The notes below the pieces were generated by a model that worked only from the letters and a program-made list of their open reading frames with translations, ran no database searches and was not told the origin of the DNA. A program made the position numbers and the translations under genes. Shown here one piece after another: positions 12,498 through 59,147 of a stretch of 64,000 nucleotides of DNA (position 1 is its first letter; every line of letters begins with the position of its first letter). This stretch comes from Naegleria gruberi (Eukaryota): assembly GCA_000004985.1 (NCBI GenBank), contig GG738893.1, one strand, 5' to 3'.

Positions 12498-14344
12498 ATG
12501 GTAAAAAATTCATCACCTCCAACCAATGGAGAATATCAACCAACACGGATTGAATTATTTAAGCAAAATCATGATATTGCTTTTAATTTCTTGAAAAAGG
12601 GTATTGAACTTGATGAGAGCAAACAATTGGAAAAAGCCAGAGATTACTATCGTGAGGGTATGTAAAAAATTGTTGTAAAATTATTGTAACTGATGATTTT
12701 TTAGGCATTCAATCGATTCTACAAGCAGAAAGAGTTCCTCTCTCACAACAGGAAAGGTATCAAGCAAAAGCCATGTTGGATAAACTTTCAAAACACAAAA
12801 CCATGTTTTATGAGAGAGTGAAAGAAATTGATCAAATTCTTTTCAGTCAACAGCAAGCAAAACAAACTCAATTGGATAATCTCAGCAATAACAATGCAAG
12901 TGGAGGATTTTTCTCTGGGTTTATGAAAATGTTTTCACCACTCTCAACACCTCCTAACAGTTCATCCAACAATAATAGTAACACTCAACAAGCTATCTCA
13001 CAAGAAACAAGAAAATTGTGTAGTGTAAATAATAATAGACACGAGCCAATCTATAATCAATATACGACCAACAGCCAAGTGATTAGGAGCTTCCCAGCAG
13101 TTTCTTCAATTGGTCAATCTTCAACCAACATGTACAATAGTGTCAATATTTGTGATGGTATTTCTTCATCTGAGAAGAGAAGTCCAACACCACCAAGAAA
13201 TAGAAGTAATTCAAATGATAAGATTTTATTTGGCCACTATGATGCTCTTGGATCACTTCCACAAAACAACATGGGTCACTATCAACAACCACCTCAACAA
13301 TCATCTCAACAACAACAGCAACCTTTAGTTCCAAAACAAAATTCTGTAACTGCACTCAGAAATACTACCTCAGCAACATCATCAACAACAACAGCTAACA
13401 ATAAGAAACCTTCCCTTGATCAAATTCCAGAACTCAAAGGTGTTGATAGGAAACTTTTGGATCACATTTTGAATGAAGTGATTGAAACAAAAACAACTAA
13501 TTGGGATGACATTGCTGGACTTAAGGATGCCAAACAAACACTTCTTGAAACAGTAATCTTACCAAGTATAAGACCTGATCTTTTTAATGGACTGAGAGCT
13601 CCATGTAGAGGTATTTTACTTTTTGGACCACCTGGTACAGGTAAAACAATGATTGCAAGAGCATGTGCCTCTCAATGTAATGCTACTTTCTTTTCTATTA
13701 GTGCTGGGTCCTTAGTTTCGAAATATCATGGCGAAGGTGAAAAATTAGTGAGATGCTTATTTGCTGCTGCCAGATATTTGCAGCCGTCTGTGATATTTAT
13801 TGATGAAATTGATTCGATACTATCTGCACGTAGCTCTGAAGAACATGAGGCTAGTAGAAGAATGAAAACAGAGTTTATGATTCAAATGGATGGTGTTAGT
13901 AATATGAATGGGAAAGAAGATAGAGTTCTTGTAATGGGAGCTACAAACATTCCAACCGAATTGGATGAAGCTATTCTCAGAAGATTCACCAAGAGAATAT
14001 ATATACCTCTTCCTGATCATGCAGCAAGAGCATCACTCATTAAGCAACTTTCACATGGTCAAAATATGAGTTTGAGTGAAACCGATATCAACAAGATTTG
14101 TGTAGCCACTGAAGGATTTTCTGGAAGTGATCTGACAGCCCTGTGTAAAGAAACGTCAATGGTTCCTCTGAGAGAAATAAGTATGGATCAACTCATTTCT
14201 ATAGATGCACGAAAGATTAGACCAATCGTGCTCAAGGATTTCCAATCTTCTCTCGTGCATGTTAGACCTTCCACATCACAAGATACTATTAAGAAGTTAG
14301 AAAAGTGGAATGAAAGCTATGGAACTTTTGCAAAGGGTATTTAA
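12498..14344 (+). CDS. SPAST: Spastin (MIT domain + meiotic-clade AAA ATPase), join(12498..12657,12705..14344)
   Basis: Exon 1 encodes the MIT-domain start (IELFKQNHDIAFNFLKKGIELDESKQLEKARDYYREG). A 47-nt intron (GTATGT...TTTTAG) follows. The AAA module shows ILLFGPPGTGKTM, NATFFSISAGSLVSKYHGEGEKLVRCLFAAARYLQPSVIFIDEIDS and RVLVMGATNIPTELDEAILRRF, very close to metazoan spastin. Confidence 0.85.
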
Positions 14345-15292: not shown

Positions 15293-15833
15293 TTTTTTTA
15301 ATGTTTTGGAAAATTAATTTAAATCCAACTCTCCTAACAATAATAACAAAGAAAGAGCCAACAAAGAATTCCCGATATTGTCTGGTGCTGGTATCTGAAT
15401 TTTACTTCATCACTGCCAATGTGGAATACTGTTTGTAAAGAAGATATTTTTTTCAATTATTGAATTAAATTCGATACTAAAAGCAAAACATTATGAGTGT
15501 TGTTACATTAGCAGATAATTGTCTCATATTGATAATTCCATTCAATAATCCAGATTAAACATGCTGAGACAAGGCCGATATTGAAATAGATTAAATTTGA
15601 TTTCGAAACACTAAAATGCACAAGAAATGTTTGAAATTGTTGTTCCTTCTTTTTGGAAAAAAGTTAGCAACTAAAAAAGAAATGACTACTATACTTTCAC
15701 CTCATTTTTCAAATTAAAATAAAGCTTACTGACCTAAATTAATCAAGGTGATCACGTTTTCTTTACTTCTTTGCGTAGAATAGTTGTAAACGAAACTCAA
15801 CAGACCAAAAAAAACTAAAAACACGCCCACAAG

Positions 15834-18800
15834 ATGAATTTACTTCATGCTTTCACCATCTTGTTGTTGGTTTTCACTCTCATACTCCAAATAACCAATG
15901 GACCTGTCGAATGCCAAACCATCAACACAATTGCTGGCTCGCTTCCATATGGCTATAATGGTGATAATCAAGTGGCAATAAAAGCAGAACTCTACCAACC
16001 AAAACAATTGGCTTATTACAATAACGAGGTTTATATTGCTGACAGTGCCAATCATATGATTAGAAAAATACTTTCGAATGGGACAATAGTTTCGATTGCT
16101 GGTTGGATGGGTTCACCTGGCTATAATGGTGATAATCAATTGGCTAACATGGCTAAACTCAATGCTCCAAATGGTTTGGCAATTTCTTCTGCCACAGGTC
16201 ACATCTATATCGCGGGTTAGTTGTTAATTTTTATTGGAATTTAACTTTTGCAAGATACTCAAAATTATCGAGTTAGAAAGATTGTAAATGGTGTCATTTC
16301 AACAATTTCTGGAACTGGAGTACAAGGCAGTTGTTCAGATGGAGTTCTAGCTATCAACTGTGCATTATACTCTCCATCCAATATTGCTATTCGAACTATT
16401 GAAGGAGTTGGTGATGAAATTTACATTGCCGATTCGAGTATCGTTAGGAAGATTGGAACAGATGGAAAAATCTATAGATATGCAGGTGGAGGCAATGAAA
16501 ATATTGAGTATGGCTCTGCAGTTTCAGCTCAACTTGCCTCTCCTCTCAGTGTTGGAATTTCACCCACTACAGGAGAGCTCTTCATTGGAATAGGAATCAA
16601 TTATATTATTAGAAAGGTCTTTCTGAATGGTACAATAGTTTCTGTAGCGGAGAAGGAAAGTTCTATTCAGGGTTTTGTTTCGGGTGTTACTGGAATATCA
16701 TTTTCAAATACTTCTCTCTATTACACAGAGTATCAGGCACGTGTTAAACAACTATTCCTCTCAAATGGAACATTTTCTGTTATTGGTGGAAACCTTAATG
16801 TTATGGTTACCAATTATCAAGATAACATTTTGGCAACAGATGCCACTCTATTAGGTCTGAAAGGAATTGCATTCTCTCCAGAAAAGAATGAAGTGTATAT
16901 CTCTGAATATGATTCATTCGCTACTAATGGAAGAGTGAGAAAGATTGGATCTGATGGATATATTGTAACAGTGGCAGGTAATTTGACAAGTTTGAATAGT
17001 GGATATAATGGTGATGATATTATGGCCACGGATGCAAAATTGTATAGACCTGAGGCTGTAATAGTTTCTAATAGTGGGGATGTCATAATTTCAGATACTG
17101 GTAATAGTAGAATTAGAAAGATTCTGTCTAGTGGTAAAATTGTGACCATTGTTGGACAAGGAAACTTTGGTAATACTGCAAATTATAATGGAGATGGTAT
17201 TCCTGCTATTGCTGCAAATATCAAATTTCCAAGTGCTATTTTACTTTCATCTAGCAATGAATTGTACATTGCCGATTTTGGTAATTATCGAGTTCGAAAG
17301 GTACTTGCTAACGGAACGATAACAACCATCGCAGGAACAGGTTCTAACATAGAATCTACTGCCTTAGATTTGGCCATTAATGTTGGAATTGGATCACCAA
17401 TAGGTTTAGCTATTTTTGGTGATGAGGTTTATTTCACCACAAATTCCAATAGAGTTAGAAAGATTTTGAGTAATGGAACTTTAATAGTCTATGCAGGTAC
17501 TGGAACAGTTGGCTATGATTCAAATAATGTATTGGCCGTTAATGCTAAACTAAATGCTCCAACATTCTTGGCTGTTTATCCTAATGGAGATTTGCTGATT
17601 TCAGATAGTTTCAATTATATGATTAGAAAAGTTCTGACAAATGGTACCATTATTCGAGTTGCAGGAACTGGAACATTTGGATACAATGGAGACAACATCT
17701 TGGCTATAAATGCCCAATTGGCTAATCCACAAGGAATTCATATACTTTCGAACGGTGATATTCTATTCTCAGATCAGTTCAATTATAGGGTGAGAAAAAT
17801 TCTGACCAATGGAACAATTTTAACAGTTGCTGGATCTGGAACTTTTGGATACAATGGAGAAAATTTACCAGCTTTAAGTACACAATTATATGCAGCTCAG
17901 GGCTTGGCAGTTTCACCTATCGATGGTTCGATTATTTTAGCTGACACGTCAAATCACAGAATTAGGAAAATATTAGATTTCTGTGATTCGAATAGAACTT
18001 GTAATAATAATGGTTTCTGTAACACAACCTCTAATCAATGCGTTTGTTATTCGGGATGGATTGGGTCAACATGTTCCTCCTTTTCATGTGATGCCTTAAA
18101 CAATTGTAATGGAAATGGAAAGTGTATTGGAAATAACACTTGCCAATGTGATTTGGGATGGAGAGGAAATTCTCAATGCAGTCAATATTCATGTGAAATT
18201 TACAATAATTGTTATGGAAATGGAATGTGTGTGAAAAACAATACATGTGAGTGTTATTCTGGATGGAGAGGATCATCTGCTAATTGTTCACAGTTTTCAT
18301 GTGATGGAGTGGCAAACTGCTCAGAACATGGTATTTGTATGGGAAATAATTCATGCTCATGTCACACTGGATGGAAAAATAACCAATGCTCAGAAATTTC
18401 ATGTGACATTCTCAATAATTGTTATGGAAATGGCATTTGTAAAACGAATAATACATGTGAATGCAATTCAGGATGGAAAGGTGCCTCAAATTGCTCTCTT
18501 TTCACATGTGAAGGTGTTGGAAATTGCAGTTCTCATGGAAAATGTATTGGAAATAACACTTGCCAATGTGATTTGGGATGGAAAGGAAATTCTCAATGCA
18601 GTCAATTTTCTTGTGAGATTTACAATAATTGCAATGGAAACGGATATTGTAAAAGTAGCAATAGTTGTGAATGTAATTCTGGATGGAAAGGTTCATTAGA
18701 TTGTTCCCAATTCTCATGCGAAGGCGTCAACAATTGTTCATCTCATGGTATTTGTTATGGAGCCAATACTTGTGTATGTGAAAAGGGATGGAAAGGAAAT

Positions 18801-20102
18801 TCTCAATGTTCTCGTCCATCATGTGAAGAATTGCAGAATTGTAATGGTAATGGAAACTGCACACTCAATGGCAACTGTTCCTGTAATAGTGGCTGGGAGG
18901 GAGCTGATTGTTCCACCATTTCAAAAGTGATAGCAGCCAATGAATCCAATAATAATACTGTGACCATTGTAGTGACAGTTGTGGCTGTAGTCGTTGTTTT
19001 ATTGATTATTGCTGCCATTGTGATAATAGTCATAGCAGTTATATTGTCAAGAAAGTATGTGAAGAAACCTAGCAATGAGTCGAAGCATGAAACAATTTTG
19101 AAGAATGATTTTGAGCTCATTGATGAAAATACGAATAGCAATACCATGACGTCGATGAAACCTGTTGAAACCATCCAATCGACGTCAATGAACGAAACCT
19201 CAATAGTTTCAGATTACCCATCTGATTCATTTCTTAGCTCAACAAAAGTTTCCTCCATTGTTTCGTCATCAGCAAAACCACTCACTCCAACTAACTCTTC
19301 AAGTCAATTCTCAATGCTTAAGGATCGTTATCAGATACAGGAAGTAATTGGGCAAGGATCTTTCGGCAAATGTTTTCTTTGTTTAGATTTGAAAAAACAA
19401 AATCAACCAGTTGCTATCAAAACCATAAGTATAGGAGAGAACAAACACTCAAAGATCATTGATGAATGCTCCAAGACTATTTCTTACAAACATCCAAGAT
19501 TGGTACAAGTTTATGAATTCTTCGAATCTGAACTTCTCAATTCAATTTGCATTGTAATGAAATTTTACAATGGAGATTTGGAAACACTATTGAAAAAGCA
19601 ACAAGGATTCCTACCTGAAAGTATGATCATCAAAATGATGAAACAATTAGGTGATGGTTTGGATTATCTTCACAATGAAAAGATGATTATTCACAGAGAT
19701 ATCAAACCAAAGAATATTTTCATTGAATCATTCGATATTGAAAGAGAGGAAATCAATGTAGTTATTGGAGATTATGGAGAAGCAAAGGATCTGGGAGAAA
19801 CCAGCAATACAGTTGCAGGAACAATTATCTACATGGCTCCAGAGGTCTTTTCCAGAAAATATGATTGTAGCGCTGATATATTTTCTCTGGGAGTGACACT
19901 TGTACAAAGTATGTCAGCAAGTGGATTCGATTTCTCAGTCACGGACAAACTCATGTACGAAGCAGAGGAGAGTGTACTGCAAAGAGTGAGTGAACATTTA
20001 CTTTCCAGAAACTATTCGATTCATTTGTGTGAGTTTGTAATTTCCATGTTATCAAGAGATCCTAAAAAGAGACCTACCTGTTTAGATATTAAGAATTATT
20101 GA
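15834..20102 (+). CDS. Receptor-like protein kinase: signal peptide, about 12 NHL repeats, about 12 tenascin-type EGF-like repeats, TM helix, S/T-rich juxtamembrane region and Ser/Thr-type kinase domain; join(15834..16215,16255..20102)
   Basis: A 39-nt intron (GTTAGT...TTGCAAG) restores the NHL consensus IYIAD|TQNYRVRKI. The motifs (I/L)YIADxxNxR(I/V)RK(I/V) and CxCxxGW(K/R)GxxC recur throughout. The TM helix is VTIVVTVVAVVVVLLIIAAIVIIVIAVIL. The kinase carries GQGSFGK...VAIK, HRDIKPKN, DYG and MAPE. Confidence 0.8.
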
Positions 20103-20239
20103 AACAATTTCAAACTTGTAGTATCAATTCTTTATTTGAATTTCAAATTTGTAATATCAATTTCAAATGTTTGTCAATGTTCAACCCAAATATTCCAAAA
20201 TGCACAAGAAATTAAATTTTTTTAATTCATTACAAAAAA

Positions 20240-21012
20240 ATGTCTCCAGAATCGAAGTCGGAATTGAACCTCGTTACCATCACAGAAAATAATAGTCAAG
20301 AAGCAACAAGTTCCTCTCTTGATCAAGCATCATCTTCATCACCAACTACGACGGTGGGTGGTTATAAATTTGAAGAAAAATTTGGTGATTTATTCTCATC
20401 AGAGGATTCGATTTGTCATTGTGTGAGTGAGTGTTTATCTATGAGCAAGGGAATTGCAACCTTTTTCAAGGATAAATATGGTAGAGTGGACGAATTGAAG
20501 AAACAGAGAGCCAAGACGGGTGGTCTTGCTGTTTTGCACATTCCAGAGGAAGGAAAATATATCTAGTAAGTTTTTGAATTTATTCTTTTTTTGTAAACAT
20601 TATTGAAATATTATTCATTCATAATATTAATTTTAATAATATGCTCAATAGCTATTTGGTCACTAAGGAAAAATACTACCTGAAACCAACTTATGAAACT
20701 CTGACCTCGAGTTTGCAAGCCATGAAGAAGCATGCCCAGGAACATTCTGTAAAGAGAATTTCACTCCCATTAATTGGGTGTGGTTTGGACAGATTGTCAT
20801 GGTCTAGAGTGAGACAAATTTTGGATAACACGTTTGGAGATATGGACATGACATTAACACTTTACAAAATTGAAAGCAATAACGACAACAATTCAACAAG
20901 CTCACGTGGTAGAAGTAACAACAGTAGCAATAACAGAAGAGGTAGAGGTGGTGGATCAAGTCAAAAACGTTCTGGAAATTACAACTCTGGAAACAATAAG
21001 AGAGTGAAATAA
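20240..21012 (+). CDS. OARD1: OARD1/TARG1-like macro domain protein (O-acetyl-ADP-ribose deacetylase / Glu-ADP-ribose hydrolase type), join(20240..20565,20652..21012), with RGG-like low-complexity C-terminus
   Basis: An 86-nt intron (GTAAGT...CAATAG) joins ...LHIPEEGKYI|YYLVTKEKYYLKPTYETLTSSLQAMKKH...ISLPLIGCGLDRLSWSRVRQIL. This aligns closely with human OARD1 ([22 protein letters not shown]...MPRIGCGLDRLQWENV). Confidence 0.8.
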
Positions 21013-21966: not shown

Positions 21967-22821
21967 ATGCAATCATCTTCCGATTCTCATCCCATCATTA
22001 AAATTATAAAAATCATTCATGGGAGTGAGATTAGACGTTTTTACTTTTCTCCGAGTAGAATCAATACATTGCAACAATTACATGAAAAGATTAGGGAAAT
22101 ATTTGGATTGGCTAGTGATTTTAGAATTATTTTGGTATTTGGAGCAAACAAGGTCATCTCTTCCGATGATTCTCTGTTGTATTTGATAGAGAGTGCTATG
22201 GCTGATCAAAGTGATTTGATATTTAAATTGGTGGATAAGGAACCTGTGGTGGAGAATGTTGCGCTCTCTGTTGAGGATTTCATATCAAAGGTTCAGACAA
22301 TGACCAAGCAGTTGAATATTAATGATAAGGGCATTCTCCTCAACAAGTGTCTGAATTATTTGGAAATTGAATTGAATAATGCAAAGGCAATTGTACCCAC
22401 TGCTGCAGTGGAGAATACAGGGAATACTCTTGTGGAGACTCCTACTGAAAAGACAAAATATGGACAGAAGTTGGCTAAATTTATGGGTGATGTCACAATA
22501 CCTGATCAAACTGTTATCAAGCCATCTACTAAATTTGTAAAAACATGGAAATTTAAGAATTGTGGAAATAGACCTCTTCCAAAGAATAGTAGGCTCATGT
22601 TCTTGAAAGGAAACAAGCGAGTGAATCATTTCAATAGTCCTCCTTTTGTGGAATTGGGAAATACAGAAAATCAAATCAACCCAGGTGATGAGTTTGTTGT
22701 TTCAATAGAATTACAGACCCCAGAAACCGAAGGTGTATTATCATCCTATTTCAGAATGGCAGATGAAAATAGTGAACCATTTGGGCAAAAGGTTTGGGTT
22801 TGTGTGAATGTTGTCAAATAA
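21967..22821 (+). CDS. NBR1-like protein: N-terminal PB1 domain plus C-terminal NBR1 FW (four-tryptophan) domain, without ZZ or UBA
   Basis: PB1-like start IIKIIKIIHGSEIRRFYFSPS...IFKLV. The C-terminus DVTIPDQTVIKPSTKFVKTWKFKNCGNRPLPKNSRLMFL...NPGDEFVVSIELQTPETEGVLSSYFRMADENSEPFGQKVWVCVNVV matches the NBR1 FW domain pattern. The stop lies 47 bp from the stop of the convergent NRK gene. Confidence 0.65.
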   Translation: MQSSSDSHPIIKIIKIIHGSEIRRFYFSPSRINTLQQLHEKIREIFGLASDFRIILVFGANKVISSDDSLLYLIESAMADQSDLIFKLVDKEPVVENVALSVEDFISKVQTMTKQLNINDKGILLNKCLNYLEIELNNAKAIVPTAAVENTGNTLVETPTEKTKYGQKLAKFMGDVTIPDQTVIKPSTKFVKTWKFKNCGNRPLPKNSRLMFLKGNKRVNHFNSPPFVELGNTENQINPGDEFVVSIELQTPETEGVLSSYFRMADENSEPFGQKVWVCVNVVK

Positions 22822-36079: not shown

Positions 36080-38335
36080 ATGTCTTTTAATCCAAGAGGA
36101 AGCAACAAGGAGTACTCTTTCATGTCTACTACTGCTCCATCTGTAGATAGAAAGCTTCCATTCCTTCCAGGCTATACATTCGACGACAAATTCATTAAGG
36201 ATAGACATCATAAGGGACAATTATTAGCATACAAAAATAATATTCCTGTTGTACATGATTACGATGTCCCTGTTGAAGTGGATGAACTTCAAACAGAAAC
36301 CGAAAAGCTGGCTGAAATGCTCAAATCCACCACTCAACTTTATAAAACCTCTGTAACCAATAATGATACAACTAAAAAAGAAAATTGGTTGTCTTTGGAA
36401 AAGAAGGTCCTCAGATTCAATGCTTTTTTCAAGGAAGGTGTTCATGAAAGTGCTGTTGAACAAAGTAGGGTTAGAAAATGTGTAATTTTCTACTACCTCG
36501 AAGATGATACAATGCACATCAGTGAACCAAAGCAAGATAACTCTGGTATTCCTCAAGGTACTTTGGTCAAGAGACATCGTATTCCAAGAGATAGAGCTTC
36601 GGGAAGTTCAAATGTTTACTATACAATGGACGATCTTAACATTGGAAGAGAAGTTACAATTTACGGAAAGACATTCAGAATTGTTGATTGCGACTCTTTC
36701 ACAAGAGAATTCTATAATGGTATTGGTGTTGAAGTTCCAGAACCAGAGCTTTACCCTGGCGATCAATATACTGATTTGAGAGATACTATTAAAAAGTCAA
36801 TGAATCCTTACAAGTCCTTAAATCCAATGGACCAAGATCTTAAGAAGTATATGGAATATTCATTCAAGGGTATGCGTACCACACCATCAAAGCAAGAAAA
36901 AGTTGCTGTACAAAAATTCCTTGCATTTGATAGACAAGTATTGCGTTTCTTCTGTTACTGGGATGACTCTGAAAAGTTGTATGGTGATAAGAGATTCTTC
37001 ATTTTGGAATACTACCTTTCAGATGACACCATGATGATTACTGAAGTTTACCCAGCCAACTCTGGTTATGATCCATTCCCAGTCTTTTTGAAGAGACAAA
37101 AGGTTCCAAGAGTTAAAAGCTCTGCTGTTGAACCAACTACATGTTATGATGAAACAGATCTTGCTATTGGAAAGCGTGTTGTTGTTTTCTCAAAGAACTT
37201 TTTGCTCTATGATTGTGATGAATTCACCAGAGACTTCTTTGCCAGAAAGTATGGCATTACCAGCATGACTCCAATTGAGGTGAAGGATGCTCCAAAGCCT
37301 GAAATTCAATATCAAGAACCACCATATAATGGATTTGGTGATGAAGAAGATTCTTTGGGTTCTTGGAAATACTTGGTTATTAAACCACCAAAGAAGGATG
37401 TAAAGAAGTATATTGAAAATGATCACAAGCTCTTTAGATACTCTGCAGTTTTACTTACTGACTGTCCAGAAGACAAGGGAAGAAAATTCATTCTCTCCTA
37501 TTACCTTTCTGATGACACTATTTCAGTATTCGAACCTGTACAAAGAAACAGCGGTATTCTTGGAGGAAAATTCCTTCAAAGATCCAAGATTAAGAATGAC
37601 AATGGTGATTTTATTAAGGCCCATGACACCTTTATTGGATCTGTTTTGAACATCAACAGCTACTTATTCTACTTGCAAGAAACTGATGAATATACTGTAA
37701 ACTATATGGAACAAAATGCTTCACAATTCCCTAAGGCAAACATTGAAACTATTTTGAATAAGATTAGAAAGGAAGTGATAAACCTTCCAGACTATAAGCT
37801 TAGAGATGCATTAGCTGAAACTGAAGGTCCAGGAAAGGTCGGAATGATGTCTTTAAGATCATTCTTTGATAGTTTAGGTATTAACATTGTCGAGCATGAA
37901 ATTATTACAATTTTGAGACATTTCAATGCAAAGGAAGATGGTGCAATTTCATATTCTGAATTCTTGAGTGCAATTACATCAGCTCCAACCATTGAAAAGA
38001 AGCAACAATCAATTCAAAAAACCCAAAAGAAAGTTATTGATGAAGATGTTTTTAAGGTTGCTCTTAAAGTTTTCAAGGAAAAGATTGGCACTAGAAGACT
38101 TCTTGTCCATGACTCTTTCAAGATTATTGCTGACAAGAGTGTTGATGGCTTGATTGGAGAGGTTGAATTCAAGCGAGCAGTTCAAGATGGTCTCAAACTT
38201 TCCTTATCAGATGAACATATCGAATCTTTAATTGATCACTTCTTCCCAGAAACTAAGCGTAGATTAACTTTAATAGAATTTATGAAGATTATTGAAGGTA
38301 CATCTACATACCTTTATGCTAAGCAAAATAAATAA
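36080..38335 (+). CDS. EFHC1: EFHC1/EFHC2 (Rib72-like) axonemal protein: three DM10 domains plus C-terminal EF-hand region; single exon
   Basis: Three DM10 units (VLRFNAFFKEG...VRKCVIFYYLEDDTMHISEPKQDNSGIPQG, VLRFFCYWDDSEKL...FFILEYYLSDDTMMITEVYPANSGY, LFRYSAVLLTD...KFILSYYLSDDTISVFEPVQRNSGILGG). The C-terminal EF-hand-like segment is NAKEDGAISYSEFLSAI. Confidence 0.85.
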   Translation: MSFNPRGSNKEYSFMSTTAPSVDRKLPFLPGYTFDDKFIKDRHHKGQLLAYKNNIPVVHDYDVPVEVDELQTETEKLAEMLKSTTQLYKTSVTNNDTTKKENWLSLEKKVLRFNAFFKEGVHESAVEQSRVRKCVIFYYLEDDTMHISEPKQDNSGIPQGTLVKRHRIPRDRASGSSNVYYTMDDLNIGREVTIYGKTFRIVDCDSFTREFYNGIGVEVPEPELYPGDQYTDLRDTIKKSMNPYKSLNPMDQDLKKYMEYSFKGMRTTPSKQEKVAVQKFLAFDRQVLRFFCYWDDSEKLYGDKRFFILEYYLSDDTMMITEVYPANSGYDPFPVFLKRQKVPRVKSSAVEPTTCYDETDLAIGKRVVVFSKNFLLYDCDEFTRDFFARKYGITSMTPIEVKDAPKPEIQYQEPPYNGFGDEEDSLGSWKYLVIKPPKKDVKKYIENDHKLFRYSAVLLTDCPEDKGRKFILSYYLSDDTISVFEPVQRNSGILGGKFLQRSKIKNDNGDFIKAHDTFIGSVLNINSYLFYLQETDEYTVNYMEQNASQFPKANIETILNKIRKEVINLPDYKLRDALAETEGPGKVGMMSLRSFFDSLGINIVEHEIITILRHFNAKEDGAISYSEFLSAITSAPTIEKKQQSIQKTQKKVIDEDVFKVALKVFKEKIGTRRLLVHDSFKIIADKSVDGLIGEVEFKRAVQDGLKLSLSDEHIESLIDHFFPETKRRLTLIEFMKIIEGTSTYLYAKQNK

Positions 38336-51409: not shown

Positions 51410-52402
51410 TTAATACCTGAATATTCTTAAAACGTTGTTACAATAATCAGCAAAATAAAGCTCTCCATTATATGAATTCAATGTACATCCTCCTACGTAG
51501 CTCTCCTGTATCAGTTCACTATTCTTTGAATTATTGGAAATATCAGAAACAGATTCTAACCTCCCTTCCATATCCATAACTTTAATGCAATCGGTATTGA
51601 CAGTTATTATTTTGTAAGAAATCGTGTCAAATAGCGCATAGAAAAAATCATTGAAATGAATCTCCTTGACACTCTTCCATTCAGTTTCGTTAATTTTCTT
51701 CAATATTGAGAGATATTTCTCATCTTGATTGGTCAATAAAAGTGTAAATTCATTAATCACTTGAACATTCCACACACAAAATCCAAAATCCATTTGTTCT
51801 AAAACTTTTCCATCAGACAAGCTTAATATCGAAAATTTCAAGTAAGGATCACAAAAATAGATAGCATTTCCATAATGTTGTAATCCAGCTGGTCCATCAA
51901 ATAATTGACTCTTCCAAACATGTTTCAATTCATTGGGTTGTTGATGATTCAACATTTCGAATAGGGAATACTTGTAGACATGACCATCACAACATGAAAT
52001 AATTAGAGAATTACCACCCACTACACCTGTATCATTCTCTACCACATCTATATATACTGGAGTGGCAGGCATGATGATGGACTTCATCAGATTCCTACTC
52101 ATTAAACAGAAAAATTGAATTCTATCATTGCCATGATCACTCACAATAATACAACCAAGTGAGTGGCAAATCTTTACATCAAACGGATTTTTAAACCCCG
52201 AAATATTATCAACATTATCAATTTCATTAGAAAAGGCTTTCTTTCGTTTAGATTTGAATTTTTCCAACATGTGGGATGGAAAATTCACATTAAAATCTAT
52301 CAATTCGATATTTACTAAATTTTCATCAGTCAAAGATGAGGAATATTTTCTCTTCTTGGAGGAACTTTCAAGGGAATTTTCTTGGTGGTGTTTAATAGAC
52401 AT
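51410..52402 (-). CDS. NHL-repeat beta-propeller protein, 330 aa
   Basis: NHL-like blades (CIIVSDHGNDRIQFF, LYFADYCNNVLRIFRY, IYFCDPYLKFSILS). Single minus-strand ORF with an S/K-rich N-terminus. Confidence 0.55.
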   Translation of the reverse strand: MSIKHHQENSLESSSKKRKYSSSLTDENLVNIELIDFNVNFPSHMLEKFKSKRKKAFSNEIDNVDNISGFKNPFDVKICHSLGCIIVSDHGNDRIQFFCLMSRNLMKSIIMPATPVYIDVVENDTGVVGGNSLIISCCDGHVYKYSLFEMLNHQQPNELKHVWKSQLFDGPAGLQHYGNAIYFCDPYLKFSILSLSDGKVLEQMDFGFCVWNVQVINEFTLLLTNQDEKYLSILKKINETEWKSVKEIHFNDFFYALFDTISYKIITVNTDCIKVMDMEGRLESVSDISNNSKNSELIQESYVGGCTLNSYNGELYFADYCNNVLRIFRY

Positions 52403-52720: not shown

Positions 52721-53845
52721 ATGGAAGAACATCAATCTCTTGTAATTGACAATGGTTCTGGAATGTGTAAAGCTGGTTTCGCTGGCGAAGATGCTCCACG
52801 TGCTGTTTTTCCTTCATTGATTGGTAGACCAAAACAAAGGTCAATTATGGTTGGAATGGGAAATAAGGATGCCTATGTTGGAGATGAAGCCATGTCAAAG
52901 AAGGGAATCCTCGCTCTCAAATATCCAATTGAGCACGGAATTATCACTAACTGGGATGATATGGAAAAGATTTGGCATCATACTTTCTATAATGAATTGA
53001 GAGTTGGTCCTGAAGAGCATGGTGTCTTATTAACTGAAGCTCCATTGAATCCAAAGGCAAATCGTGAAAAGATGACACAAATCATGTTCGAAACCTTTAG
53101 AGTTCCAGCCATGTATGTGGCCATTCAAGCTGTCTTGTCCTTGTATGCTTCTGGTAGAACTACAGGTATTGTTTTGGATTCAGGTGATGGTGTTTCACAT
53201 ACTGTTCCTATCTATGAGGGTTATGCTTTACCACATGCCATTTTAAGATTGGATTTGGCTGGTCGTGATTTAACTGACTACTTGATGAAGATCTTGATGG
53301 AACGTGGATACAGTTTCAACACCAGTGCTGAACGTGAAATTGTCAGAGATATTAAGGAAAAGCTTTGTTATGTTGCCTTTGACTTTGAAACTGAAATTAA
53401 GAAAGCATCTTAAAGTTCATCCATTGATACTTCATATGAATTACCAGATGGTAATATTATCACAGTTGGAAATGAACGATTCAGATGTCCAGAAGTGTTA
53501 TTCCAACCTAATTTCATTGGAATGGAAGCTGCTGGTGTACACGAAACAACTTTCAATTCTATTGGAAAGTGTGATATTGACATTAGAAAGGATTTATATG
53601 CCAATGTTGTACTTTCAGGTGGTACAACCATGTTTGAAGGAATTGCTGAGAGAATGAACAAGGAATTGACAGCTATGGCTCCAGCCTCAATGAAGATTCG
53701 TGTTGTTGCTCCACCAGAAAGAAAGTATTCAGTTTGGATTGGTGGTAGTATTCTCTCTTCATTATCAACCTTTCAATCTATGTGGATCACAGCAGAGGAG
53801 TATGAAGATGCTGGATGTGCCATCGTTCATAGAAAGTGTTTCTAA
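52721..53845 (+). CDS. ACT: Actin paralog (about 85% identical to conventional actin), complete 375-codon frame except for one in-frame TAA at 53411..53413
   Basis: [32 protein letters not shown]...[10 protein letters not shown][TAA][27 protein letters not shown]...IVHRKCF. The two ORFs are in the same frame, and the TAA occupies exactly one residue position of the actin alignment (ATAAS|S|SSLEKSYELPDG). Everything else is intact. Confidence 0.8.
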
Positions 53846-56745: not shown

Positions 56746-59147
56746 ATGACCAGCAAACAAAAACATTACGGATTGGATGATGGCATTGTTCCTGAAGCTT
56801 TTGAACTTCCATCGAAACAAGAGGTTATTGTGATGGAAAAGAATGGTAATATTCATGAAGTATTGCCTCCAAATATGCTCGATGGTGATGAAGTTAAAAG
56901 TGTAACGAGTACAACTTCGGATCAGGTTAACAAGGAAGAGGAAGAAGAATTTGAATATAAACCAGTAACAAATCTTGTAGAATATTTCAGTGATGAAAAC
57001 AATCGTAAACAAATTGATGTTGTTCTTCACTGTTTATCAAAATTGGAAGAAGAGTCATCGGATAAAACAAAGGCTATGGAACACAACGGAAGATTTCAGT
57101 TTTTGTGTAATATTCTCTATGATTTGGATAAATATGAGCTTGAATTCTACATGTTACAATTACTGTAGGTTTATAATATTAATTATTTTGGTGATGATTT
57201 AAATTTCTTATTAGAAATACTTACATGATGAAAGCAGGAGATGGTGATTCACATTTGGAACGTTATATTCTTGAAATTTGCGCCAAGTCAATGCACTTTG
57301 GTGTTAAATTGAGTTGGTTATTGGATGCTGAATTATATACATTGGAAAATCATTTGGCACAAACACCAAATAATATCAAATTAAAGAAGAGAGCACAAAG
57401 AGGAATGATTTTTAGAAATTTAATTGAAAAAGTTACGATTAATCAAGTTGTTCCTATTAATTATATGAATGACAGTTTCCTGAATACATCAATTCTTCAA
57501 GTAGATGCTGAATTCACAGAAGACCAAACTGAAGAAGAGAAGAATAAGCTCTCTACATATGTTTTGCAAAATGTTTTTGCCAAACAAAGAAGATCCAATT
57601 ATTTTAATGATGAACATTATTTCGTTCATTCCCTTACTGATTTATCCTATAGATTGAAGGCATATCCTCCAGGTGATATCAGAAAGCATCGTATGAAGGC
57701 AGAACTTGAACGTTTAAATCAATCAATTCCTTATGGTGTATATTATCCTTTGTGTGAATCACGTGATCCTCACTGTAGAATTTTGAGAATTTGTACAGAT
57801 GCTTGTCGTGTTTTTAGTACAAAGGAAAGAGTTCCAATTCTTTGTGTTTTTGAAGTCCTTACAGGTGATGCACCATGTACTCAACCTGAAGATGTTATTC
57901 AATTTGATGAAACCACTGAAGAATTCAATATTTATGATGGAATTATTGTGAAAAAGAATGGAGATTGTACAGATTCACCAGCAACAGAAGAAAGCAGAAT
58001 GATTGAAAGACGTATCAGCTCAACTTATCAATTTGATGTTACCATGGATGATGAAAAACACAAAAATGATATATTGGACGAAATAGATGCCACTTCAACA
58101 ATTTCAGACTCTTCAGACTCTGGTCCTAGAAAATCTGATGCTAGCTCTATCCCTCAAACACCATCTACCTTCAAGTCAGAGCTCCCAATTTTACACATTC
58201 CAAATATCAATCAAGATGATTTTGTTCTTATTGAAAAGAAGGATCCAACCAGAGATGAAGAAGTTTTACATGATTTGGAATCTGTATTTGGTGAAAGCTT
58301 TGAAAAGATTAAGGCCAAGTATAGAGCTGTTTCACCTTATGGGTGTGCTCCTGGTTGGGACTTGAGATCTGTAATTGTAAAAGCTAATGACGATATTAGA
58401 CAAGAAATATTTGCCATGCAATTAATCAAATTATTTGCCAGGATTTTTGAAGAAGAAAAATTGCCAATCTATATTAGGCCATATGAAATTATTGTGACAA
58501 GTGGAAATTGTGGTATGCTTGAAACAGTTCGTGATACTTGCTCAATTGATGGTTTGAAGAAGAAATTCCCTAACTTTACAAATCTCAAAGACTATTTTAT
58601 TCGCGTTTATGGATCTCCAACATCTAATACTTTTATCAGAGCACAAACAAACTTTGTGGAAAGTGTTGTAGGATATTCACTTATTTCATATATTCTCCAA
58701 ATCAAGGACAGACACAATGGCAATATTCTTTTAGATAGAGAAGGACATATGGTACACATCGATTTTGGATTTTTCCTTGGTATTTCTCCTGGTGGTGTTA
58801 AATTTGAAAATTCACCATTCAAACTTCCACAAGATTGGGTTGATTTGATGGGAGAATTATTTGATTTGCACTTTAGACCAGTATTTTATGTTGCTTTTGC
58901 TGCCTTGAGAAAACCTCGTAACATGAATAGATTATTGAACTTGGTGGAAATGATGATTGGCGCAAATTATAAATGCTTTGATGGTAATCATGCAAATATC
59001 ATGAGAGATTTGAGAAATAGATTCTATCCAAATCAATCTGAAGAAGAATTTGCCAAGACAGCCAGAAAACTTGTAGATGATTCCATAGATAACTGGTTTA
59101 CTAAGAGATATGATCAATATCAATACCTTACCAATGGTATTTTGTAA
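56746..59147 (+). CDS. PI4KB: Phosphatidylinositol 4-kinase beta (type III), join(56746..57164,57215..59147)
   Basis: A 50-nt intron (GTAGGT...TATTAG) joins ...ELEFYMLQL|L NTYMMKAGDGDSH..., matching PI4KB FYLPQLLNMYIHMDEDVGD. The catalytic region has CAPGWDLRSVIVKANDDIRQEIFAMQLIKLFARIFEEEKLPIYIRPYEIIV...ILQIKDRHNGNILLDREGHMVHIDFGFFL and ends ...RYDQYQYLTNGIL, as in PI4KB. Confidence 0.85.

What the first reader, a model, noticed from the sequence alone, without database searches (positions are those of the whole stretch)
15834..20102. Receptor-like kinase combining NHL beta-propeller repeats, a tenascin-type EGF array and an intracellular Ser/Thr-type kinase
The architecture is signal peptide, about 12 NHL repeats (enough for two six-bladed propellers), about 12 CxCxxGW(K/R)GxxC EGF modules, a single TM helix, an S/T-rich spacer and a kinase with HRDIKPKN / DYG / APE motifs (DYG instead of DFG). 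This is not a standard metazoan or plant receptor-kinase layout. It suggests an independently assembled ligand-sensing receptor in this protist lineage. A separate soluble NHL-repeat protein is encoded 31 kb downstream (51410..52402).
Basis: partly seen in the sequence, partly recalled or inferred. Interest (0 to 1): 0.5.

Follow-up and report, generated by a model that had tools for sequence, protein, structure and literature searches.

The report
Naegleria NHL-EGF receptor-like Ser/Thr kinase
This is a real two-exon gene from a Naegleria amoeba for a single-pass surface receptor that joins two NHL beta-propellers, nine EGF modules and an apparently active Ser/Thr kinase; it belongs to an undescribed receptor-kinase family found so far only in Naegleria and Willaertia.

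Summary
Window 15834..20102 (+) is one gene: exon 1 15834..16215, a 39-nt GT..AG intron, exon 2 16255..20102, giving 1409 aa.

Anatomy:
- N-terminal hydrophobic signal-like segment.
- 12 NHL blades, forming two six-bladed propellers.
- 9 six-cysteine tenascin/teneurin-type EGF modules, not about 12.
- One very hydrophobic TM helix followed by RKYVKK.
- A juxtamembrane spacer that is 33% Ser/Thr.
- A C-terminal protein kinase with every catalytic residue intact; DYG replaces DFG.

The organism is a Naegleria species. The N. gruberi ortholog is 65% identical in the NHL region and 88% in the kinase.

The kinase is not of the TK or TKL type, so it is unrelated to animal RTK, TGF-beta-receptor or plant RLK kinases. 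All 21 of its close relatives that were checked and carry a source name come from N. gruberi, N. fowleri, N. lovaniensis or Willaertia magna. All are annotated as hypothetical. All 16 scanned have one TM segment upstream of the kinase, and several carry NHL with or without EGF.

Independent assembly of a lineage-specific receptor kinase is therefore supported. The ligand and the signalling are only inferred. The "soluble NHL protein" at 51410..52402 is not supported. This is a new variant of a known kind, of moderate interest.

The parts
15834..16215 (+). Exon 1: start codon, signal-like segment, NHL blades 1-2 up to ...GHIYIA and the first base of the Asp128 codon
   Evidence: ORF list and sequence. 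Spliced translation.
16216..16254 (+). 39-nt phase-1 intron, GTTAGT...GCAAG
   Evidence: The unspliced reading hits an in-frame TAG at 16218..16220. Splicing restores the frame and the NHL consensus YIADTQNYRVRKI. The intron is identical in metagenome contig L001. The N. gruberi gene model P0002 also breaks at ...GHIYIA. No transcript evidence is available.
16255..20102 (+). Exon 2, to the TGA stop: rest of the NHL region, EGF array, TM, juxtamembrane spacer and kinase in one uninterrupted frame
   Evidence: The same ORF occurs on an independent metagenome contig.
15834..15914 (+). Predicted signal peptide, residues 1-27, with putative cleavage ..PVEC|QT
   Evidence: Kyte-Doolittle peak 2.26 at residues 3-21. 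An equivalent N-terminal hydrophobic segment directly precedes the first TIAG strand in P0002, P0003 and P0004. Hydropathy only.
15915..16940 (+). NHL blades 1-6, residues 28-356: first propeller. Spans the intron.
   Evidence: Blade segmentation. PDB sequence hits SOQ1 and NHLRC2 NHL domains over blades 1-4. The model of paralog P0004 has 48 strands, i.e. 12 four-stranded blades.
16941..17972 (+). NHL blades 7-12, residues 357-700: second six-bladed propeller
   Evidence: AlphaFold2 model of window residues 357-738: pLDDT 88, pTM 0.86, with 24 strands in the propeller part. Foldseek to the Bacillus inaquosorum teneurin-like protein NHL domain (9ifo): TM 0.81, rmsd 2.4 A, 36% identity. phmmer E=1.5e-49.
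17982..18911 (+). Array of nine six-Cys tenascin/teneurin-type EGF modules, residues 704-1013
   Evidence: 54 Cys in nine units, with CxCxxGW[KR]G in each. Pfam EGF_TEN 2e-42. The best solved matches are the teneurin-2/3 EGF arrays, 2e-26.
18115..18808 (+). DNA tandem repeat inside the EGF array: period 210 nt (two EGF units), 3.3 copies, 70% matches
   Evidence: Tandem Repeats Finder.
18957..19046 (+). Transmembrane helix, residues 1029-1058 (TVTIVVTVVAVVVVLLIIAAIVIIVIAVIL), followed by the positive patch SRKYVKK
   Evidence: Kyte-Doolittle 19-residue mean of 3.89, the only strong internal peak. The equivalent segment in P0004 is modelled as a helix.
19050..19328 (+). Juxtamembrane spacer, residues 1060-1152, 33% Ser+Thr. 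Contains the conserved motif SDYPSDSF (19209..19232).
   Evidence: Composition. SD[YF]PSD[ST]F recurs in P0003/P0004, Y-P-T-D-S-F follows the gene-model junction in P0002, and variants occur in P0205 and P0250.
19329..20099 (+). Protein kinase domain, residues 1153-1409. Motifs: GQGSFG 19350..19367; VAIK (Lys1183) 19410..19421; alphaC Glu1198; HRDIKPKN 19692..19715; DYG 19770..19778; APE 19836..19844.
   Evidence: Pfam Pkinase 1.3e-47. All catalytic and structural residues are invariant in a 13-member family alignment. Motif coordinates.

Best explanation
The locus encodes a type I single-pass receptor-like Ser/Thr kinase of a Naegleria species.

Shown here
- A two-exon gene gives a 1409-aa protein.
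- It has an N-terminal signal-like segment.
- Two six-bladed NHL beta-propellers of the bacterial/teneurin type form the membrane-distal head.
- Nine tenascin/teneurin-type EGF modules form a stalk.
- There is one TM helix with a positive-inside flank.
- A Ser/Thr-rich juxtamembrane spacer carries a conserved SD[YF]PSD[ST]F motif.
- The C-terminal eukaryotic protein kinase domain retains all catalytic residues, with DYG as a conservative variant of DFG.
- It belongs to a kinase clade found so far only in Naegleria and Willaertia. Its members all have one TM segment upstream of the kinase, but their ectodomains differ.

Inferred, not shown
- The propellers bind an extracellular ligand, either a macromolecule or a surface. 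Prey or other cell surfaces and substrate components are plausible, but the ligand is unknown.
- Ligand binding clusters or reorients receptors.
- The cytoplasmic kinase domains then trans-phosphorylate activation-loop and juxtamembrane Ser/Thr residues and pass the signal to cytoplasmic targets.
- The EGF array grows and shrinks by tandem duplication of two-module units, which changes stalk length.
For: Gene and product
- establish the gene and its spliced product.

Domains
- Pfam finds Pkinase, EGF_TEN, TEN_NHL, NHL and EGF_Teneurin, all far above their cut-offs.

Structure
- The window's second propeller models at pLDDT 88 / pTM 0.86 with 24 strands.
- It superposes on solved six-bladed NHL propellers with TM up to 0.81.
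- The full-length paralog P0004 models with 12 four-stranded blades and a TM helix. It also matches solved ectodomains built of tandem beta-propellers, namely Bacteroides hybrid two-component sensors and LRP6.

Kinase competence
- The Gly-loop, Lys39, Glu54, HRDxKxxN, the Asp and Gly of D[YFL]G, GTxxYxxPE, Asp191 and Arg256 are invariant in the family alignment (alignment numbering).
- DYG is shared by the seven closest members scanned: the window protein, P0002, P0003, P0004, P0121, P0122 and P0123.

One gene, not two
- The frame is continuous from the NHL region to the kinase.
- The same ORF is present on an independent environmental contig that is 98.6% identical.
- That contig differs by 32 synonymous and 23 non-synonymous changes and no CDS indel. 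This gives dN/dS of roughly 0.2-0.3 if about a quarter of sites are synonymous. Only 2 of the 23 replacements fall in the kinase.

Family
- N. gruberi P0003/P0004/P0135, N. fowleri P0274 and N. lovaniensis P0281 share the NHL+EGF+kinase combination.
- P0136, P0185, P0205 and P0250 carry NHL+kinase.
- All 16 members scanned have one strong hydrophobic segment about 75-295 residues upstream of the kinase.

Evolutionary rate and repeat dynamics
- Against the N. gruberi ortholog, the ectodomain is 65% identical and the juxtamembrane-plus-kinase part 88%. This is the pattern expected of a receptor.
- A 210-nt tandem repeat lies inside the EGF array.
- P0003 and P0004 are 95% identical but have 38 versus 20 ectodomain Cys.
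Against: - No transcript, proteomic or biochemical data exist for this gene. The 39-nt intron is inferred only from frame restoration and motif restoration.
- Signal peptide and topology rest on hydropathy, not on a trained predictor.
- No ligand is known for any member.
- NHL propellers have very diverse roles (RNA binding, enzymes, adhesion), so ligand sensing is an analogy.
- The public N. gruberi ortholog model (P0002) lacks the EGF array and TM. I attribute this to a gene-model error but could not check it against N. gruberi DNA.
- The EGF and kinase parts of the P0004 model have low confidence.
Confidence: 0.75

Rival explanations
1. It is mainly an adhesion or phagocytosis molecule. On this reading the NHL-EGF ectodomain mediates attachment to prey, substrate or other amoebae, as teneurins and tenascins do. 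The kinase only tunes adhesion locally and does not relay a soluble-ligand signal.
For: The ectodomain modules match teneurin EGF and NHL profiles best. Naegleria also has NHL+EGF+TM proteins with only a short cytoplasmic tail and no kinase: P0029, P0053 and P0056. That fits a primary surface-binding role for the ectodomain.
Against: The kinase is the most conserved part of the protein, 88% against 65% for the ectodomain, and it is catalytically complete. This argues that the output matters. The two readings are not mutually exclusive, because adhesion receptors can signal.
Confidence: 0.2
2. The kinase domain is a pseudokinase or scaffold, and the DYG substitution marks loss of activity.
For: DFG is replaced by DYG. 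No activity data exist.
Against: All other catalytic residues are present and invariant across the family: VAIK Lys, alphaC Glu, HRD Asp, the catalytic-loop Asn, and the Asp and Gly of DxG. Tyr is a conservative aromatic replacement for Phe, and relatives in the same clade carry DFG or DLG. The kinase is under strong constraint.
Confidence: 0.05
3. It is a gene-model artefact: two adjacent genes (a secreted or membrane NHL-EGF protein and a cytoplasmic kinase) are read as one, or the locus is a pseudogene broken at the stop in exon 1.
For: The unspliced sequence has an in-frame TAG at 16218..16220. The 39-nt intron is short compared with the 86-nt intron seen in the next gene. The public N. 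gruberi model P0002 omits the EGF/TM part.
Against: There is no stop codon between NHL blade 3 and the kinase C-terminus over 3.8 kb of 35%-GC DNA. The TM helix lies exactly between the Cys-rich, N-glycosylation-sequon-rich part and the kinase. The same architecture occurs in independent gene models of three Naegleria species. A second isolate keeps the ORF intact with a synonymous excess. Splicing recreates a canonical blade.
Confidence: 0.03
4. The NHL region is an extracellular enzyme of the lactonase, strictosidine-synthase or arylesterase type, tethered to the membrane, rather than a binding module.
For: There are weak Pfam similarities to Str_synth (3e-4) and Arylesterase (1.3e-3). Many bacterial homologs are auto-named 'sugar lactone lactonase YvrE'.
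Against: Both Pfam hits fall below their curated cut-offs and cover only about 30 residues of one blade. The best structural matches are non-enzymatic NHL propellers: teneurin-like protein, SOQ1, NHLRC2 and TRIM2/71. The YvrE names are automatic COG labels.
Confidence: 0.04

Closest known systems
Uncharacterised Naegleria/Willaertia receptor-like kinases in public databases. Examples: N. gruberi XP_002674840 (P0135), XP_002675547 (P0205), XP_002678153 (P0250), and the 'NHL repeat-containing protein' P0003; N. fowleri FDP41_002843 (P0274); N. lovaniensis C9374_010785 (P0281).
   Same: They share the kinase clade at 31-88% identity. All those scanned have a single TM segment upstream of a C-terminal kinase. 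Many have NHL ectodomains with or without teneurin-type EGF. The window protein is the ortholog of N. gruberi P0002.
   Different: They differ in numbers of NHL blades and EGF modules. Some members have ectodomains with no Pfam domain. All are annotated only as predicted, hypothetical or generic kinases. No paper in the searched library describes them.
Mycobacterium tuberculosis PknD, a bacterial receptor Ser/Thr kinase with an NHL beta-propeller sensor (PDB 1RWI/1RWL)
   Same: It follows the same logic: a Hanks-type Ser/Thr kinase coupled through one TM helix to an extracytoplasmic six-bladed NHL propeller. The PknD sensor is detectably similar in sequence (E=1.4e-6).
   Different: By established knowledge, PknD has the opposite orientation, with the kinase N-terminal and the propeller C-terminal. 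It has one propeller and no EGF stalk. Here the kinase is of the eukaryotic type, the protein is type I, there are two propellers, and nine EGF modules follow them.
Teneurins and bacterial teneurin-like proteins (PMC13018210)
   Same: The EGF array hits the Pfam teneurin EGF profile (EGF_TEN, above its curated cut-off) and the NHL region hits TEN_NHL. The best solved match for the propeller is the B. inaquosorum TLP NHL domain (1.5e-49, TM 0.81). The best solved match for the EGF array is teneurin-2/3.
   Different: No FN-plug, YD shell, ABD or Tox-GHH domain was found. The domain order is reversed: NHL precedes EGF. The protein is type I rather than type II. The cytoplasmic part is a kinase. 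It is not a teneurin.
Entamoeba histolytica transmembrane kinases (EhTMKs; PMC2880585)
   Same: They are another protist lineage-specific expansion of single-pass proteins with an extracellular domain, a TM segment and an intracellular kinase.
   Different: By established knowledge, EhTMK ectodomains are Cys-rich CXXC-type repeats rather than NHL/EGF. No specific sequence relationship to EhTMK kinases was tested here.
LDL-receptor/LRP6-type ectodomains and Bacteroides hybrid two-component sensors (BT4663/BT4673)
   Same: They have tandem beta-propellers as the ligand-binding head of a membrane receptor. LRP6 interleaves its propellers with EGF modules. Both classes appear among the Foldseek matches of the full-length paralog model.
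   Different: These are YWTD propellers or seven-bladed propellers, not NHL. Their outputs differ: endocytic or Wnt co-receptor tails, or histidine kinase. The similarity is of fold class only (TM-scores 0.14-0.33 on either normalisation).

Membership tests
Eukaryotic protein kinase, Ser/Thr type (Pfam PF00069) | Gly-rich loop GxGxxG, beta3 Lys (VAIK), alphaC Glu, HRDxKxxN catalytic loop, DFG, APE, alphaF Asp and alphaH-I Arg | tested here: met
   GQGSFG 1160, Lys1183, Glu1198, HRDIKPKN 1274, DYG 1300 and APE 1322. Pkinase scores 162.9 bits against a cut-off of 31.7. All these positions are invariant in the 13-member family alignment. Only the middle DFG residue varies (Y, F or L).
Tyrosine kinase / TKL group (animal RTKs, TGF-beta receptors, plant RLK/Pelle) | A better fit to PK_Tyr_Ser-Thr (PF07714) than to Pkinase; a catalytic loop of the HRDLAARN/HRDLRAAN type; closest relatives among TK/TKL kinases | tested here: not met
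   PF07714 scores 105.6 bits against 162.9 for PF00069. The catalytic loop is HRDIKPKN. The top solved relatives are MST3/STK24, CDPKs, NEK1/2/7 and ULK1-3. The single 'EGFR' entry 9p9u owes its score to two summed stretches and is not corroborated.
NHL-repeat six-bladed beta-propeller (PF01436 / PF25021) | Six repeats of about 45-60 aa, each a four-stranded blade, closing into a propeller | tested here: met
   There are 12 repeats of 45-62 aa. NHL scores 101.6 bits and TEN_NHL 133.9 bits. The model of blades 7-12 has pLDDT 88 and 24 strands, and superposes on solved NHL propellers with TM 0.72-0.81 normalised to the model and up to 0.86 normalised to the target. They are supported only by paralog P0004.
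Tenascin/teneurin-type EGF module | Six Cys in about 31-36 aa with a CxC near the C-terminal end, arranged as a contiguous array without linkers | tested here: met
   There are nine consecutive units with spacing C-x5-C-x5-C-x5/6-C-x-C-x8-10-C. EGF_TEN scores 145.8 bits against a cut-off of 65. Disulfide connectivity is not testable here.
Teneurin | Type II topology with an EGF array followed by FN-plug, NHL, YD shell and a C-terminal toxin-like domain | tested here: not met
   Only the EGF and NHL profiles hit. No YD/RHS, FN-plug or Tox-GHH family was found. The order is NHL then EGF. An N-terminal signal-like segment and a C-terminal kinase imply type I topology.
Type I single-pass membrane receptor | A cleavable N-terminal signal peptide, one TM helix and positive-inside flanking; extracellular features such as Cys-rich modules and N-glycosylation sequons lie only N-terminal to the TM | tested here: inconclusive
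   Hydropathy gives exactly two peaks, at residues 3-21 and 1039-1057. RKYVKK follows the TM. Of 64 Cys, 57 lie N-terminal to the TM, and so do 25 of 29 NxS/T sequons. This is consistent, but no SignalP- or TMHMM-type predictor was available and there is no experimental topology.
Bacterial PknD-type NHL sensor kinase | N-terminal cytoplasmic Hanks kinase, one TM helix and a C-terminal extracytoplasmic NHL propeller | tested here: not met
   The orientation is reversed and an EGF stalk is present. Similarity to the PknD sensor is only weak (E=1.4e-6). It works like PknD but is not a member.

The most novel reading that the evidence does not exclude
Naegleria and its relatives may have built a modular surface-recognition repertoire around a bacterial-type NHL propeller, possibly acquired from bacteria. 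The same head, often on a teneurin-type EGF stalk, is wired to at least three outputs: a lineage-specific Ser/Thr kinase, a GPS/7TM region with a C-terminal RGS domain, or a bare TM anchor. On this reading the repertoire is an independent invention of a diversified receptor family, analogous to plant LRR-RLKs, used by a bacterivorous and occasionally pathogenic amoeba to recognise prey, host or self surfaces.
Probability: 0.25. Interest if true: 0.65.

Novelty: new variant of a known kind. Interest (0 to 1): 0.4.

Why it matters
- Receptor kinases have been assembled independently several times, in animals, plants, Entamoeba and choanoflagellates. This would add a documented case from Heterolobosea, a deep-branching lineage with almost no characterised surface receptors.
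- The domain combination (NHL propellers, EGF stalk, Ser/Thr kinase) has not been described in the literature searched.
- Relatives with NHL, EGF and kinase domains exist in the brain-eating pathogen N. fowleri (P0274). Surface-exposed, lineage-specific kinases there would be of interest as recognition molecules or drug targets.
- The finding also flags a probable mis-modelled N. gruberi gene. It shows that teneurin-type NHL and EGF modules co-occur outside animals in a different arrangement.
- No function has been demonstrated, so the value is a well-defined hypothesis rather than a surprise.

Tried and rejected
1. Dictyostelid origin was my first guess, from the AT-richness and the poly-N/Q neighbours. 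It was rejected when the homologs turned out to be Naegleria.
2. The look-up of encoding contigs for the N. gruberi ortholog P0002 was meant to test whether its EGF/TM region is in frame in the genome. There was no record, so the suspected gene-model error stays unverified.
I used paralog P0004 and window residues 357-738 instead.
4. A word-indexed homolog search with the kinase domain alone returned only one protein. That was uninformative, so the exhaustive representative search was used.
5. tblastn of the NHL, EGF and kinase parts against the whole window found nothing outside the gene. There is therefore no local paralog cluster, and the 51410..52402 ORF was rejected as an NHL paralog.
6. 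The kinase could not be assigned to a named group. STE20, CAMK/CDPK, NEK and ULK all score within about 10 bits of each other, so no assignment is made.
7. The N. gruberi genome paper is not held in the library. Five literature searches for Naegleria with NHL, kinome or receptor-kinase terms found nothing relevant.
8. Horizontal transfer of the NHL module from bacteria was considered. Bacterial hits reach 33-40% identity, about the same as Naegleria paralogs. No phylogeny was made, so this is left open.

Full report
**1. What is in the sequence**

The region lies in DNA of about 33-36% GC. An ATG at 15834 opens a 128-codon ORF that stops at a TAG at 16218..16220. A second ORF in another frame then runs without a stop from 16248 to 20102.

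The sequence between them reads G|GTTAGT...TTTTGCAAG|AT. Removing 16216..16254 (39 nt, phase 1) joins the two ORFs into a 4230-nt CDS of 1409 codons. The junction then reads ...GHIYIA-D-TQNYRVRKI. This is exactly the [YF]IAD..N..[IV]RK[IV] strand that ends most of the other NHL blades.

The public N. gruberi ortholog model also breaks at ...GHIYIA. It rejoins further downstream and so loses one strand. No transcript data were available, so the intron rests on frame restoration and motif restoration.

**2. Domain anatomy (residues of the spliced protein)**

Pfam gives the following hits, all above their curated cut-offs:

| Family | E-value | Note |
|---|---|---|
| Pkinase | 1.3e-47 | residues 1153-1407 |
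| EGF_TEN | 2e-42 | |
| TEN_NHL | 8.9e-39 | |
| EGF_Teneurin | 1.7e-30 | |
| NHL | 9.3e-30 | |
| EGF_2 | 2.9e-21 | |

Manual segmentation gives this layout:

| Residues | Feature |
|---|---|
| 3-21 | Hydrophobic N-terminus, followed by TNGPVEC\|QT |
| 28-700 | Twelve NHL blades of 45-62 aa |
| 704-1013 | Nine six-Cys EGF units of 30-36 aa (54 Cys), each with CxCxxGW[KR]G-like ends |
| 1029-1058 | One extremely hydrophobic segment (Kyte-Doolittle mean 3.89), followed by SRKYVKK |
| 1060-1152 | Spacer of 93 residues, 33% Ser+Thr, containing SDYPSDSF |
| 1153-1409 | Kinase |

- Of the 64 Cys, 57 lie N-terminal to the TM segment. So do 25 of the 29 NxS/T sequons. This fits an extracellular N-terminal part.
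The "about 12 NHL repeats" is exact.
- At the DNA level the EGF array contains a tandem repeat of period 210 nt (two modules), 3.3 copies, 70% matches. The array grew by duplication of two-module units.

**3. Structure**

- Window residues 357-738 (blades 7-12 plus EGF1) with a 19-row alignment gave pLDDT 88 and pTM 0.86, with 24 strands in the propeller part.
- Foldseek places this model on solved six-bladed NHL propellers:
  - Bacillus inaquosorum teneurin-like protein: TM 0.81, rmsd 2.4 A, 36% identity.
  - SOQ1, NHLRC2, teneurins, TRIM2 and designed Pizza6 proteins also match.
- The full-length N. gruberi paralog P0004 (1182 aa) modelled with 48 strands, i.e. 12 blades at pLDDT 70-93, and a helix at the TM. 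Its EGF and kinase parts had low confidence.
- Its matches include ectodomains built of tandem beta-propellers: LRP6 and the Bacteroides BT4663/BT4673 sensors.
- By sequence, blades 7-12 match the TLP NHL domain at 1.5e-49. Blades 1-4 match SOQ1 and NHLRC2. The M. tuberculosis PknD sensor matches at 1.4e-6.
- The EGF array matches the teneurin-2/3 EGF arrays at 2e-26.

**4. The kinase**

- Every catalytic and structural hallmark is present: GQGSFG, Lys1183 in VAIK, Glu1198, HRDIKPKN, DYG and APE.
- In an alignment of 13 family kinase domains these positions are invariant. Only the middle DFG residue varies (Y, F or L). DYG is therefore a clade-specific conservative variant, not a sign of a dead kinase.
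- The domain fits Pkinase 57 bits better than PK_Tyr_Ser-Thr.
- Its best solved relatives are MST3/STK24, CDPKs, NEK7 and ULK1/2 at 83-93 bits.
- With the family profile the best relatives are CDPK, NEK1/2, ULK and MST3 at 139-151 bits.
- One odd entry labelled EGFR (9p9u) tops only because two stretches are summed.
- I conclude that this is a Ser/Thr-type ePK without a clear group assignment, and that it is not TK or TKL.

**5. Organism and relatives**

The full-length search found the following:
- A 99%-identical ORF on a 4974-nt metagenome contig (P0001/L001, sample ERZ929261).
- N. gruberi P0002, with 65% identity over the NHL region and 88% over the juxtamembrane-plus-kinase part.
- N. 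gruberi P0003/P0004, with 37-39% identity overall and the same NHL+EGF+TM+kinase layout.
- Many Naegleria NHL(+EGF) surface proteins without a kinase.
- Two N. gruberi proteins with NHL (P0102 also has EGF and GPS), a multi-pass region and a C-terminal RGS domain (P0068, P0102).
- Hundreds of bacterial NHL proteins at 33-40% identity.

P0002 jumps from the first EGF module straight to YPTDSF in the juxtamembrane region. It thereby lacks our residues 723-1114. This is most likely a gene-model error across the repeats, but I could not retrieve the N. gruberi DNA to prove it.

An exhaustive HMMER search with the kinase region against 1.84 billion representatives gave 121 proteins at E<=1e-30. Findings on those I examined:
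- All close hits that were looked up and carry a source name come from N. gruberi, N. fowleri, N. lovaniensis or Willaertia magna, annotated as predicted, hypothetical or generic kinases. P0124, a tandem-kinase protein of N. lovaniensis, is one of them.
- Named hits from other organisms were a bird tandem-kinase protein (P0125), whose score is summed over four stretches, and a choanoflagellate protein with an N-terminal kinase (P0265).
- Pfam on these relatives shows three kinds of ectodomain:
  - NHL+EGF+kinase: P0135, N. fowleri P0274, N. lovaniensis P0281.
  - NHL+kinase: P0136, P0185, P0205, P0250.
  - No Pfam domain: P0122, P0123, P0150, P0180.
- All 16 members scanned have exactly one strong hydrophobic segment, about 75-295 residues before the kinase.

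**6. Selection**

The window and L001 differ at 71 alignment positions over 4.97 kb: 68 mismatches and one 3-nt insertion in the 5' flank. In the CDS there are 32 synonymous and 23 non-synonymous changes and no indels. The intron is identical. Only 2 of the 23 replacements fall in the kinase. If about a quarter of sites are synonymous, dN/dS is roughly 0.2-0.3. This is a rough estimate, not a formal calculation. The gene is under purifying selection in at least two isolates.

**7. Interpretation**

*Shown.* This is a single gene for a protein with the layout signal-like segment, 2 x 6 NHL blades, 9 EGF modules, TM helix, S/T-rich spacer and a catalytically complete Ser/Thr kinase. It belongs to a kinase clade so far seen only in vahlkampfiid amoebae, and that clade is always placed behind a TM segment.

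*Inferred.* The following steps are not demonstrated:
- Type I topology.
- Ligand binding by the propellers at the tip of an EGF stalk.
- Activation by clustering and trans-phosphorylation.

*Analogies.*
- The logic matches bacterial PknD (NHL sensor, TM, Ser/Thr kinase), but with reversed orientation and a eukaryotic kinase.
- The ectodomain modules are those of teneurins. The defining teneurin superfold (FN-plug, YD shell, toxin domain; PMC13018210) is absent and the domain order is reversed, so this is not a teneurin.
- Entamoeba TMKs (PMC2880585) are a comparable protist-specific receptor-kinase expansion with a different ectodomain.

**8.

The ORF at 51410..52402 is on the minus strand. 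It has no Pfam family at E<=0.01 and no similarity to the receptor's NHL region. Two strands resemble NHL motifs (VSDHGNDRIQFF and YFADYCNNVLRIF), but that is not enough to call it an NHL-repeat protein.

**9. Novelty and verdict**

- Five full-text searches found no description of Naegleria NHL or receptor kinases.
- The genes themselves are already in public databases as unnamed predictions.
- I rate this a new variant of a known kind (receptor-like Ser/Thr kinases), real and well supported as an architecture, with the mechanism inferred.
- Interest is moderate, at 0.4. Independent invention of receptor kinases in protists is an established theme. However, this domain combination, its presence in N. 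fowleri and the modular reuse of the NHL head are worth recording.

Noticed in passing
N. gruberi protein P0002 (public model, 992 aa), compared with window 15834..20102: The public ortholog model skips the equivalent of window residues 723-1114, which hold eight of the nine EGF modules, the TM helix and the proximal juxtamembrane region. It also skips one NHL strand after ...GHIYIA. As modelled, the protein would have no TM segment between an NHL head and a kinase. This is probably a gene-model error across repeats.
   Followed up: partly
window 52721..53842 (+): An actin-like gene is colinear with actin over its full length. It has an in-frame TAA at 53411..53413 (KKAS*SSSID), where actins read ..AASSSSLEK. 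It could be a pseudogene, a nonsense allele or a sequence error.
   Followed up: no
It has only two NHL-like strands. Its identity is unknown.
   Followed up: partly
N. gruberi P0068 (2103 aa) and P0102 (2300 aa): In these proteins an NHL ectodomain is fused to a multi-pass membrane region and a C-terminal RGS domain (PF00615). P0102 also carries teneurin-type EGF and a GPS motif. The layout resembles an adhesion GPCR with a built-in RGS. The same sensor head is thus wired to a different output.
   Followed up: no
N. gruberi P0003 versus P0004: These two receptor kinases are 95% identical but differ by about three EGF modules (38 versus 20 ectodomain Cys; 1290 versus 1182 aa). Both lie on a contig of the same length, 461,873 nt. 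They could be recent tandem paralogs, or there may be assembly or model variation in the repeat array. EGF copy number appears labile, in line with the 210-nt tandem repeat at window 18115..18808.
   Followed up: partly
L001 (metagenome ERZ929261, contig k127_167793) versus window 15545..20515: An environmental contig is 98.6% identical over 4974 nt, with 32 synonymous and 23 non-synonymous differences in the CDS. The same or a sister Naegleria species is therefore present in that sample.
   Followed up: partly
window 20240..21012 (+): The next gene downstream encodes a small Macro-domain protein (Pfam Macro 1.8e-05 on exon 2). It is split by an 86-nt GTAAGT..AG intron at 20566..20651, read. 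This serves as a comparison for the unusually short 39-nt intron of the receptor gene.
   Followed up: partly
juxtamembrane region, window 19209..19232: The motif S-D-[YF]-P-S-D-[ST]-F lies about 40 residues before the kinase. It is conserved in P0003 and P0004; in P0002, Y-P-T-D-S-F follows the gene-model junction directly. Variants occur in P0205 and P0250. It may be a regulatory or docking site. Its function is unknown.
   Followed up: no
PDB entry 9p9u_A: A chain labelled 'Epidermal growth factor receptor' (678 aa) tops the family-profile search at 173 bits, from two matched stretches. It does not appear in the single-sequence search. The score is probably summed over two kinase-like stretches rather than reflecting a true affinity.
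   Followed up: no
window 36080..38335 (+), 57225..59147 (+), 12773..14344 (+), 21967..22821 (+): The neighbouring genes are ordinary eukaryotic housekeeping or flagellar genes. They are a DM10/EF-hand (EFHC-like) protein, a PI3/PI4-kinase, an AAA ATPase with a Vps4_C domain, and a protein with an NBR1-type Ig-like domain. There is no cluster of receptor genes around the finding.
   Followed up: partly
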